In this document: positions 55,300 through 56,139 of the stretch, one piece after another
Layout: each line of letters opens with the position of its first letter
How positions within the stretch are numbered: position 1 is the first letter of the stretch
Sequence record: OM632664.1
From: Escherichia phage BEU5
Reading direction: 5' to 3' (one strand)
Length of the DNA: 64,000 bases
Program-made: the position numbers and the translations under genes
The notes under the pieces: model-generated
What the model saw: the letters and a program-made list of their open reading frames with translations, nothing else
Database searches by the model: none
What the model was told of the DNA's origin: nothing

Positions 55300-56139
55300 A
55301 TGCCTGTTCTTAAAGTGATGTTCCATAAAGACACCAACGTAGCTACTGTACTGGATGCCAGTGGTAGCCTTAGTGATGGTTCCGTTGAGGTGGGTACTTT
55401 CCATCATCCTGATGAAACCTATCCTGATAGTGTAACTATCTATCATGGTGTACGTGACCTGCTGTATAAACGCAGTGCTAAAGACCCATCTCAAACTGCT
55501 TCTTACCCAAATAACATTATCAATATGCAAGTTATCAGTATTGATATGAAGGCAACTCCTCGCCTGATTTTGGGTACTGCATTACCTCGTGTAATCTCTA
55601 CTATTGAAGGCAAAGATGTAACCTGGCATGTAGATGTTGCTGGTGGTAAAGCACCATTGACTTACAAGTGGCAGTTTAAAGCTAATACTGTAGGTGCTGC
55701 TTTCGCTGATATTGATTCCGGAGAGAATCCTACAGCTAAAACTGCAACTCTTATTAACCATGCAGTAACTGCTGAATCTGCTGGTACTTATAAAGTCATC
55801 GTTACTGATGCTAACGGTACTACTATCGAGAGTTCTTCTCTGCTGGTTGTAGGAGTTCAGGAACCACCTGAAGTAGCTTCTATTGTTGCTTATCCAAGTC
55901 CACTGGCTCTATCAGTAGCTGATGATATTACTGATGGTAAAACAGTTAAATTTTCTTCCCTGCCTGCTGGCTCTTTGATTGGTACTCTGTCCATTAAGAC
56001 CCAGCCTGACAGTGGTAAAGCTACTGCTGAGATTAGTGGTAATGTACTGACAGTTAAACCTGTAGCCGCAGGTGACACTACTGTAGTGGTCACCAACGGA
56101 ACCAAGGAAGTAACTGTTACGGTTAATGTTACAGAATAA
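55300..56139 (+). CDS. Ig-like (BIG2-type) domain protein
   Basis: C-terminal ATAEISGNVLTVKPVAAGDTTVVVTNGTKEVTVTVNV is BIG2-like; a second Ig-like repeat is upstream. ATG 55300 with GAGGAA RBS (track start 55267 lacks an RBS). Confidence 0.55.
   Translation: MPVLKVMFHKDTNVATVLDASGSLSDGSVEVGTFHHPDETYPDSVTIYHGVRDLLYKRSAKDPSQTASYPNNIINMQVISIDMKATPRLILGTALPRVISTIEGKDVTWHVDVAGGKAPLTYKWQFKANTVGAAFADIDSGENPTAKTATLINHAVTAESAGTYKVIVTDANGTTIESSSLLVVGVQEPPEVASIVAYPSPLALSVADDITDGKTVKFSSLPAGSLIGTLSIKTQPDSGKATAEISGNVLTVKPVAAGDTTVVVTNGTKEVTVTVNVTE

What the first reader, a model, noticed from the sequence alone, without database searches (positions are those of the whole stretch)
55300..56139. Ig-like (BIG2) repeat protein in the non-structural region, bracketed by terminators
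Ig-like domains in phages are normally on capsid or tail decoration proteins in the late module. This one lies right after RNAP II, between two strong terminators (55221-55257 and 56161-56183), as a moron-like unit. It could be a separately expressed virion decoration or a host-surface-interacting factor.
Basis: partly seen in the sequence, partly recalled or inferred. Interest (0 to 1): 0.45.

Follow-up and report, generated by a model that had tools for sequence, protein, structure and literature searches.

The report
Phage N4 capsid decoration protein gp17
This gene is the already well-studied capsid "cement" protein gp17 of coliphage N4, whose structure on the virus shell is solved; its odd position next to the phage RNA polymerase genes is real but is a known, conserved trait of N4-like phages.

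Summary
The window is a permuted genome of an Enquatrovirus N4 strain, 98% identical to N4. The ORF at 55300-56139 (+) is N4 gene 17, annotated "32 kDa protein, 32 kD VP". Its 279-aa product is 100% identical to PDB 9e99 chain J. That chain is the Ig-like decoration protein modelled at 2.45 A on the T=9 N4 capsid, three copies per asymmetric unit (PMC11768535).

The ORF, its place just after the RNAPII genes gp15/gp16, and both flanking terminator-like hairpins are there.

Two details fail:
- No Big_2 match is found.
- The three domains are not sequence repeats.

"Virion decoration" is correct and already proven. Virion proteomics or cryo-EM exist for N4, Klebsiella phage KP8 and Shigella phage Moo19.

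"Moron-like" is not supported:
- The gene and its position after RNAPII are conserved across N4-like phages of more than ten host genera.
- Its composition is native.
- No promoter of its own is recognisable. In Moo19 and Tellus there is no room for one.

The only open point is which polymerase transcribes it, and when.

The parts
55300..56139 (+). Gene 17 of an N4 strain: capsid decoration (cement) protein gp17, 279 aa, '32 kDa virion protein'
   Evidence: 100% identical over 279 aa to PDB 9e99_J, 9lbz and 9ld7. It corresponds to the N4 CDS at 6759-7598, '32 kD VP'. PHROG 2973 'Hoc-like head decoration', E 5e-95. It differs from N4 at 11 nucleotides, all synonymous third positions.
55300..55563 (+). 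Domain I (about aa 1-88): capsid-anchoring domain, with the invariant core G-x-F-x-HPD-x-x-YP-x-S...HGVR-x-x-LY
   Evidence: The invariant columns hold in six phages, out to Xanthomonas PB119. tblastn finds it in 130 records, all N4-sized genomes. The cryo-EM paper places domain I on every quasi-3-fold axis. The domain boundary is my approximation.
55564..55854 (+). Domain II (about aa 89-185): Ig_3 / I-set-type Ig-like domain that lies on the P-domain of a major capsid protein subunit
   Evidence: Pfam Ig_3 scores 23.3-24.9 bits against a cut-off of 30. The St11Ph5 orthologue scores above cut-off: Ig_3 31.1 and I-set 25.2. This domain type is shared with Vi01-like, T4-like and T5-like phage structural proteins.
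55855..56136 (+). Domain III (about aa 186-279): solvent-exposed, flexible C-terminal beta-rich domain with few capsid contacts
   Evidence: The paper describes it as flexible, modelled by a rigid-body fit of an AlphaFold3 model, and with minimal capsid contact. It is found in only 81 records, from Enquatrovirinae and Erwinia N4-likes. It is 63% identical to Erwinia phage Tellus, against 40-42% for domains I and II. No Pfam family matches.
55288..55293 (+). Shine-Dalgarno GAGGAA, 6 nt before the ATG at 55300
   Evidence: Read from the sequence. It is conserved as GAGGA(A) in St11Ph5 and Moo19.
55221..55256 (+). Strong intrinsic-terminator-like hairpin (11 bp, UUCG loop) plus T-run after gp16. 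It is the likely end of the early (vRNAP) transcripts; that role is inferred.
   Evidence: -18.9 kcal/mol, z -4.3. The position is conserved in St11Ph5, Moo19 and Tellus. The only difference from N4 is in the loop.
56161..56184 (+). Weaker terminator-like hairpin (7 bp including a G-U pair) plus TTTTT after gene 17
   Evidence: -11.4 kcal/mol, z -1.4. N4 has a perfect 7-bp stem here, and the window's change gives a G-U pair. The position is conserved in St11Ph5, Moo19 and Tellus.
53144..55215 (+). Context: the N4 RNA polymerase II subunit genes, gp15 (53144-53953) and gp16 (54001-55215)
   Evidence: PHROG 2166 at E 1e-118 and PHROG 2051 at E 3e-172; Pfam RNA_pol. N4 annotates them as RNAP1 and RNAP2.
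30254..31459 (-). Context: the major capsid protein gene gp56, the binding partner of gp17. It sits in the leftward late module about 24 kb away on the opposite strand.
   Evidence: Mapped from N4 51866-53071, 'major coat protein'. The gp17-gp56 contacts are described.

Best explanation
The ORF is gene 17 of a coliphage N4 strain. It encodes the monomeric, three-domain Ig-like capsid decoration (cement) protein.

Shown by published structures of the identical sequence:
- Three copies bind each asymmetric unit of the T=9 capsid. That implies 180 per virion; 175 is the published estimate.
- They lie flat on the shell around the quasi-2-fold axes.
- Domain II lies on the P-domain of a major capsid protein (gp56) subunit.
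- Domain III projects into solvent with few contacts.

Reported in the literature: the protein is dispensable for infectivity but protects capsids under harsh conditions (EDTA, DNase I).

Shown here:
- The gene sits on the rightward strand immediately after the RNAPII genes. This position is conserved across Schitoviridae.
- It is under strong purifying selection.
- Domain I is the family-wide anchor. The outer domains are exchanged between lineages.

Inferred, not shown:
- The strong hairpin terminator after gp16 ends the early vRNAP transcripts, so gp17 is not made in the first minutes.
- Gene 17 is then transcribed in the middle phase by phage RNAPII. This would happen either by read-through from upstream middle promoters or from an AT-rich start overlapping the terminator's T-tract.
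- On this view its supply does not depend on the host-RNAP/N4SSB late switch that drives the other virion genes.
For: Identity:
- The window matches N4 at 98.1-98.3% over its two long aligned segments and 97.8% over the short one, and is collinear with it.
- The protein is 100% identical to PDB 9e99_J over all 279 residues.
- The N4 record calls it '32 kDa protein / 32 kD VP', and relatives are annotated 'capsid decorating protein'.
- PHROG 2973 matches at E 5e-95.

Structure and function:
- PMC11768535 gives the 2.45 A capsid, domains I-III and their positions, three copies per asymmetric unit, and the flexible domain III.
- PMC7602432 reports that gp17 does not affect infectivity but stabilises capsids against DNase I and EDTA.
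- PMC3715699 gives 175 copies per virion.
- Orthologues are in virions: KP8 by MALDI-TOF, and Moo19 gp28 by mass spectrometry and cryo-EM, identical to PDB 9d7z.

Selection and conservation:
- All 11 nucleotide differences from N4 are synonymous.
- The gene follows the RNAPII genes in OLB145, St11Ph5, Moo19, Tellus, JZBo1 and PB119.
- Domain I is found in 130 records from more than ten host genera.
- The invariant domain I motif is seen.

Transcription inference:
- gp15 and gp16 are early products.
- RNAPII transcripts are overlapping and cover the left half of the genome.
- Late genes use host RNAP plus N4SSB (all).
- Gene 17 is on the rightward strand, opposite to the late module.
- No sigma-70-like site is usefully placed upstream.
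Against: Nothing contradicts the identification. The weak points are all in the inferred transcription step.
- I found no N4 transcriptome, 5'-end map or timing data for gene 17 in the searchable library.
- I could not read the published N4 middle-promoter sequences.
- A k-mer search of N4 rightward intergenic regions gave no clear promoter motif.
- Reviews disagree on whether gp17 mainly stabilises the capsid or mainly mediates adhesion.
- The capsid-stability data on gp17-less mutants are cited as unpublished.
Confidence: 0.96

Rival explanations
1. The protein has a dual role. Besides cementing the shell, the exposed domain III acts as a weak adhesin, like T4 Hoc or T5 pb10. It would bind a host-surface or environmental glycan and so raise the encounter rate with cells or control virion aggregation.
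For: Domain III makes minimal capsid contact, and the authors propose an 'uncertain, non-structural function' for it. The decoration-protein review lists 'stability, host adhesion' for gp17. Here, domain III is better conserved than the capsid-binding domains between N4 and Erwinia phage Tellus: 63% against 40-42%. It also contains long invariant stretches such as LTVKPVAAG. That pattern fits selection on something other than capsid contacts.
Against: No binding data exist in what I could read. Domain III has no detectable family membership. The higher conservation rests on one distant lineage, and recombination of a domain cassette could also explain it. Klebsiella and Xanthomonas relatives carry different outer domains (genuine Big_2), so no single ligand is implied.
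Confidence: 0.2
2. One reading: a moron-like, independently acquired and autonomously expressed accessory cassette (own promoter, gene, terminator) inserted in the non-structural region.
For: Terminator-like hairpins flank the gene on both sides. Pseudomonas N4-likes (LUZ7, LIT1, PEV2, DEV) lack the decoration protein. The Ig domain II is a mobile domain type shared with unrelated phages.
Against: - The same gene sits at the same locus in every relative inspected: six phages from Escherichia, Shigella, Erwinia, Klebsiella and Xanthomonas hosts.
- Domain I is found in N4-like phages of more than ten host genera, including Stenotrophomonas, Achromobacter and Burkholderia.
- GC content and codon usage are native.
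- No promoter-like element lies between the upstream hairpin and the gene.
- In Moo19 and Tellus 0-5 nt separate the terminator tail from the Shine-Dalgarno.
- Hairpins punctuate the whole rightward block, not just this gene.
Confidence: 0.03
3. The protein has a non-virion, intracellular role in the middle phase (for example acting on the host envelope or on replication), and its presence on capsids is secondary.
For: Only its location among early and middle genes, next to gp18 (P22 gp17-like superinfection exclusion family) and the SPFH protein gp20.
Against: It occupies the capsid stoichiometrically in an ordered way, with extensive specific contacts. It has no signal peptide or membrane segment in the sequence. 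It is reported to be dispensable for infectivity.
Confidence: 0.01

Closest known systems
Coliphage N4 gp17 (32 kDa virion protein; PDB 9e99, 9lbz, 9ld7)
   Same: The amino-acid sequence is identical (279/279). The flanking genes, the flanking hairpins and the ribosome-binding site are the same.
   Different: The nucleotide sequence has 11 synonymous changes. There is one change in the loop of the upstream hairpin, and one G-C to G-U change in the downstream stem. Functionally nothing differs.
Shigella phage Moo19 gp28 (PDB 9d7z) and Gamaleyavirus (G7C / St11Ph5) gp17
   Same: These are orthologues, 59% and 70% identical. They share the three-domain layout, the position after the RNAPII genes and the flanking hairpins. 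Moo19 gp28 is confirmed in the virion.
   Different: The Moo19 authors describe binding at quasi-sixfold axes and suggest a Hoc-like trimer spike for the unmodelled C-terminal domain. The N4 paper describes monomers lying flat around quasi-2-fold axes. St11Ph5 has an extra small ORF between gp16 and gp17.
T4 Hoc (highly immunogenic outer capsid protein)
   Same: It is a non-essential, monomeric capsid decoration built of tandem Ig-like domains plus one capsid-binding domain. PHROG and many GenBank records name gp17 'Hoc-like'.
   Different: [quoted passage not shown] Sequence similarity to Hoc-type proteins is limited to the Ig domain II. It is an analogue, not an orthologue.
Decoration proteins of Klebsiella KP8/JZBo1 and Xanthomonas PB119 / Stenotrophomonas Pokken N4-likes
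   Same: They share the N-terminal anchor domain I (34-48% identity, invariant HPD...YP...HGVR..LY core) and the locus after the RNAPII genes. KP8's protein was found in virions.
   Different: Their outer domains are genuine Big_2 domains: one in JZBo1 (48.6 bits) and two in PB119 (81.6 bits). N4 instead has an Ig_3-type domain II and the unclassified domain III.

Membership tests
N4 gp17-type capsid decoration protein (PHROG 2973) | Full-length sequence homology to N4 gp17 | tested here: met
   100% identity to PDB 9e99_J and to the N4 CDS product. PHROG 2973 matches at E 5e-95 over profile positions 1-310 of 310.
N4 gp17-type capsid decoration protein (PHROG 2973) | Physically present on the capsid surface | not testable with these tools
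   Not testable on this sequence here. It is shown in the literature for the identical protein by cryo-EM at 2.45 A and for orthologues by MALDI-TOF and mass spectrometry.
N4 gp17-type capsid decoration protein (PHROG 2973) | Conserved N-terminal anchor domain I followed by Ig-like domains | tested here: met
   Six-phage alignment with 24 invariant columns, 17 of them in domain I. Ig_3 and I-set matches fall on domain II.
N4 gp17-type capsid decoration protein (PHROG 2973) | Locus downstream of the RNAPII subunit genes on the early/middle strand | tested here: met
   Seen in the window and in relatives. The KP8 paper calls this 'usual for N4-like phages'.
Pfam Big_2 (PF02368, bacterial Ig-like domain group 2) | Score at or above the gathering cut-off (22.8 bits) against the Big_2 HMM | tested here: not met
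   No Big_2 hit at E<=0.1 for the whole protein or at E<=10 for each domain alone. The same search finds Big_2 at 48.6 and 81.6 bits in the JZBo1 and PB119 proteins.
Pfam Big_2 (PF02368, bacterial Ig-like domain group 2) | Profile or fold similarity of domain III to known Big_2 domains | tested here: inconclusive
   hhalign of the domain III profile against the relatives' Big_2 domains gives probability 1%. The lambda gpV C-terminal domain matches at E 0.058 with the single sequence and 0.27 with the profile, but over its full length. That this lambda domain belongs to Big_2 is from my own knowledge. The single-sequence AlphaFold2 model of domain III had pLDDT 47, so no fold search was made.
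Pfam Ig_3 / I-set (eukaryote-type immunoglobulin domains) | Score at or above the gathering cut-off (30 and 23.7 bits) | tested here: inconclusive
   The N4 protein scores Ig_3 23.3-24.9 and I-set 17-18.6, both below cut-off. The 70%-identical St11Ph5 orthologue scores Ig_3 31.1 and I-set 25.2, both above cut-off.
Phage moron | Own promoter between the upstream terminator and the gene | tested here: not met
   No usable sigma-70-like site was found; the only hit overlaps the start codon. No shared intergenic motif emerged. In Moo19 and Tellus 0-5 nt separate the terminator tail from the Shine-Dalgarno. Promoters for N4 RNAPII cannot be scanned for with these tools, so this test is limited.
Phage moron | Downstream terminator | tested here: met
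   Hairpin 56161-56179 plus a T-run. It is weak but positionally conserved.
Phage moron | Sporadic presence among close relatives and atypical composition | tested here: not met
   Of the 20 records that match this 5-kb locus at the nucleotide level, 13 cover at least 80% of it. The gene is present in 81 full-length and 130 domain-I-containing phage records. GC is 0.423 against 0.413 for the window, and codon-usage correlation with the neighbours is 0.88.

The most novel reading that the evidence does not exclude
Two linked readings are not excluded.

(a) Gene 17 may be the one abundant virion protein of N4 made by the phage's own RNAPII in the middle phase. The upstream terminator/T-tract element would double as its control point. 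Its supply would then be uncoupled from the N4SSB/host-RNAP late switch.

(b) The exposed domain III, the best-conserved part between N4 and Erwinia N4-likes, may be kept for a selected non-cement function such as reversible binding to an enterobacterial surface glycan.

Neither has been tested in the literature I could reach.
Probability: 0.2. Interest if true: 0.35.

Novelty: already known. Interest (0 to 1): 0.07.

Why it matters
As a finding it adds nothing new. The gene, its product, the atomic structure on the capsid, its presence in virions and its position next to the RNAPII genes are all published.

Its modest residual value is as a reminder of three things:
- N4-like phages encode one high-copy virion protein (three per asymmetric unit of a T=9 capsid, so about 180 per virion) outside the late module and on the opposite strand. 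The timing and the polymerase responsible appear not to have been mapped.
- The role of the exposed third domain is open.
- GenBank annotations of this family are very noisy. Names include 'fibritin/neck whisker', 'tail tube protein', 'RNA polymerase' and 'kappa-carrageenase precursor'. Automated readers will keep flagging it.

Tried and rejected
- Big_2 membership. Pfam scans of the whole protein and of each domain at E<=10 gave no hit. A PDB sequence search with domain III alone and with a four-sequence profile gave only lambda gpV at E 0.058 and 0.27. hhalign against three genuine Big_2 domains from relatives gave probability 1%. The label is rejected as unsupported, and the fold-level question is left open.
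- Single-sequence AlphaFold2 model of domain III. Mean pLDDT was 46.9, too poor for a fold search, so none was run.
- Internal repeat. BLASTP of domain II against domain III gave E 0.67, so they are not sequence repeats.
- De novo search for a middle-promoter motif in the N4 rightward intergenic regions. Only T-runs, Shine-Dalgarno sequences and weakly enriched TATCTA/AACTAT words came up, so it was inconclusive.
- First codon-usage run. It used an offset wrong by one base and is discarded. It was redone correctly.
- Leader hairpin that hides the Shine-Dalgarno and the AUG. It is significant in N4 (z -3.7) but absent in St11Ph5, Moo19 and Tellus, so it is not proposed as a conserved regulator.
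- Rfam scan of 54900-56700. It gave only a sub-threshold chance hit to an archaeal snoRNA model.
- Literature. Choi et al. 2008 (tried as PMC2396777) is not held. The 2026 N4 ejection-protein paper does not mention gp17. The gp17 mentions in the BASEL paper refer to T7. No N4 time-course transcriptome was found.

Full report
**What the window is**

A megablast of 53000-58000 against the phage collection hits Escherichia phage BEU13, BEU44 and BEU51 at 100%. It hits Escherichia phage N4 (EF056009 / NC_008720) at 98.6% over the full 5 kb.

A whole-window blastn against the N4 genome shows collinearity:
- window 48543-64000 = N4 1-15459
- window 3045-48542 = N4 24657-70153
- window 1-2342 = N4 22308-24649

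The window is therefore a circularly permuted assembly of a strain of Enquatrovirus N4. The N4 right and left ends are joined at 48542/48543.

**The observation**

The ORF listing gives a + strand ORF at 55267-56139 (290 aa).
- GAGGAA lies at 55288-55293.
- Orthologues all begin MP.L.
- The N4 record annotates 6759-7598, which is window 55300-56139, as '32 kDa protein, 32 kD VP'.

The gene follows gp15 (53144-53953) and gp16 (54001-55215), the two subunits of N4 RNA polymerase II.

Both flanking hairpins exist:
- 55221-55246 plus a T-run: 11 bp, -18.9 kcal/mol, z -4.3.
- 56161-56179 plus TTTTT: -11.4 kcal/mol, z only -1.4.

Hairpins at the same two positions occur in Gamaleyavirus St11Ph5, Moovirus Moo19 and Erwinia phage Tellus, although the sequences have diverged. 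The bracketing is therefore real and conserved. It is not unique to this gene. The 14-kb rightward block has 21 terminator-like sites against 8.4 +/- 3.3 expected, sitting in most intergenic gaps.

**The 'BIG2 repeat' label**

Pfam gives only sub-threshold Ig_3 (23.3 bits, cut-off 30) and I-set matches on residues 100-169. Scans of each domain separately at E<=10 give no Big_2 hit.

The St11Ph5 orthologue passes the Ig_3 and I-set cut-offs. The Klebsiella JZBo1 and Xanthomonas PB119 relatives carry genuine Big_2 domains behind the shared N-terminal domain.

For N4's C-terminal domain:
- The best outside hit is the lambda gpV C-terminal Ig-like domain, at E 0.058 with the single sequence and 0.27 with a profile.
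- hhalign against the relatives' Big_2 domains gives probability 1%.
- A single-sequence AlphaFold2 model was unusable (pLDDT 47).
- Domains II and III are not similar in sequence (E 0.67).

'Ig-like' is right. 'BIG2' and 'repeat' are not supported.

**What it is**

The 279-aa product is 100% identical to the '32 kDa protein' chains of PDB 9e99, 9lbz and 9ld7. PHROG 2973, 'Hoc-like head decoration', matches at E 5e-95.

PMC11768535 reports the 2.45 A N4 capsid:
- T=9 geometry of the major capsid protein gp56, with three gp17 monomers per asymmetric unit.
[quoted passage not shown] - Domain II lies on the P-domain of a capsid protein subunit.
- Domain III is flexible and solvent-exposed, with an 'uncertain, non-structural function'.

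Other published points:
- The copy number is given as 175 per virion (PMC3715699).
- gp17 does not affect infectivity but stabilises capsids under harsh conditions (PMC7602432).
- The Moo19 orthologue gp28 is identical to PDB 9d7z. It was found by mass spectrometry and modelled on that capsid (PMC11654681).
- The KP8 orthologue was found in virions by MALDI-TOF (PMC6950046).

**Conservation and modularity**

Against N4 the gene has 11 nucleotide differences. All are third-position and synonymous, which indicates strong purifying selection.

tblastn results by region:
- The full protein is found at 80% coverage or more in 81 phage records.
- Domain I alone is found in 130 records. Every record listed is 68-77 kb, and the hosts are Escherichia, Shigella, Klebsiella, Erwinia, Xanthomonas, Stenotrophomonas, Achromobacter, Burkholderia, Pseudomonas and Alcaligenes.
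- Domain III alone is found in 81 records, from Enquatrovirinae and Erwinia N4-likes.
- The Ig-type domain II is shared with structural proteins of Vi01-like, T4-like and T5-like phages.

A six-phage alignment shows an invariant domain I core, G-x-F-x-HPD-x-x-YP-x-S...HGVR-x-x-LY. This fits domain I being the capsid anchor.

Per-domain identity to Erwinia phage Tellus is 40% for domain I, 42% for domain II and 63% for domain III. The domain with the fewest capsid contacts is thus the best conserved at that distance.

**Is it a moron?**

In every relative inspected the gene lies after the RNAPII genes. [quoted passage not shown]

GC content (0.423 against 0.413 for the window) and relative synonymous codon usage (r 0.88 with neighbours, 0.87 with late structural genes) are native.

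There is no sensible sigma-70-like site upstream. The only hit overlaps the start codon. In Moo19 and Tellus the terminator tail runs straight into the Shine-Dalgarno, leaving 0-5 nt. A separate promoter downstream of the hairpin is therefore impossible there.

Pseudomonas N4-likes do lack the protein. That is lineage-level loss or gain of a decoration, not a mobile cassette. I reject 'moron-like'.

**How it is probably expressed (inferred)**

The N4 review (PMC4496689) states:
- gp15 and gp16 are early products.
- RNAPII makes overlapping transcripts over the left half, from minimal AT-rich promoters spanning -7 to +2.
- Late morphogenetic genes are transcribed by host RNAP with N4SSB.

Gene 17 is rightward, about 24 kb from the major capsid protein gene in this permuted window and on the opposite strand. 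The strong terminator right after gp16 is the natural end of the early transcripts.

My best inference is middle-phase expression by RNAPII. This would occur either through read-through or from a start overlapping the T-tract. In LUZ7, time-dependent terminator read-through and hairpin-associated middle promoters were seen (PMC9163698), but LUZ7 has no gp17. I found no N4 transcript map or time course in the library, so this step remains unproven.

**Verdict**

The object is the textbook N4 capsid decoration protein gp17. It is already characterised structurally and by proteomics, and its unusual location is a published, conserved feature of the family.

Novelty: already known. Interest: low. 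The residual open questions are the transcription class of gene 17 and the function of domain III.

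Noticed in passing
window 2343-3044 (ORF 2381-2995, +): There is a 702-bp insertion relative to N4 EF056009 inside the DNA polymerase gene, between N4 24649 and 24657. It carries an HNH_3 + NUMOD4 homing-endonuclease ORF. It splits the polymerase into two ORFs, 427-2478 and 2958-3788. There is no Rfam intron match. The same insertion is annotated as 'HNH homing endonuclease' between two 'DNA polymerase' CDSs in at least 11 other N4-like phages. It is therefore a known polymorphism, and N4 itself lacks it.
   Followed up: yes
window 55269-55309 (+): The gp17 leader can fold into a hairpin in which AGGCATTT (55273-55280) pairs with AAATGCCT (55298-55305). The hairpin buries the Shine-Dalgarno and the start codon: -14.4 kcal/mol, z -3.7, 0 of 200 shuffles as stable. 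It is not conserved in St11Ph5, Moo19 or Tellus. It may be a translational throttle specific to the N4 genus, or it may be chance.
   Followed up: partly
window 55855-56136 (gp17 domain III): Domain III is solvent-exposed and poor in capsid contacts, yet it is the best-conserved part of the protein between N4 and Erwinia phage Tellus: 63% identity against 40% for domain I and 42% for domain II. It has long invariant stretches such as LTVKPVAAG. This could reflect functional constraint or recent domain exchange.
   Followed up: partly
window 55300-55563; L008 3001-3792; L009 2501-3016: The decoration protein is modular. The N-terminal anchor domain I occurs across N4-like phages of more than ten host genera, but the outer domains differ. 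N4 has an Ig_3-type domain plus an unclassified domain. Klebsiella JZBo1/KP8 has one Big_2 domain. Xanthomonas PB119 has two Big_2 domains.
   Followed up: partly
window 53088-53102 and 49100-49112 (+): The hairpin AGCTGC-TCC-GCAGCT followed by TTTTGG, just upstream of gp15, closely resembles the hairpin GAAGC-TCC-GCTTC followed by TTTTGG upstream of gp2. The latter lies in the region of the N4 early vRNAP promoters. This suggests an additional vRNAP-type hairpin promoter in front of the RNAPII genes. The KP8 paper mentions a 'putative promoter P4' at the equivalent place.
   Followed up: no
window 48542/48543: The N4 right end (70153) is joined directly to the N4 left end (1). The window therefore comes from a permuted, circularised assembly of a linear genome with terminal repeats. 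The 'early' region sits near the end of the window rather than at its start.
   Followed up: yes
GenBank records of gp17 orthologues (hits H4, H5, H26, H79, H80, H110, H165): Public annotations of this family are inconsistent and often wrong. They include 'fibritin neck whisker protein', 'neck whiskers protein', 'fibritin (wac)', 'tail tube protein', 'RNA polymerase', 'virion RNA polymerase', 'kappa-carrageenase precursor' and 'multidomain protein'.
   Followed up: no
window 56209-56523 (+): The next gene, N4 gp18, is a full-length member of Pfam PF17420, 'Superinfection exclusion gene product 17' (P22 gp17-like, 188 bits). It is followed by a small membrane protein and by the SPFH/Band-7 protein gp20 (56797-57633). 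Each is separated from the next by a terminator-like hairpin.
   Followed up: no
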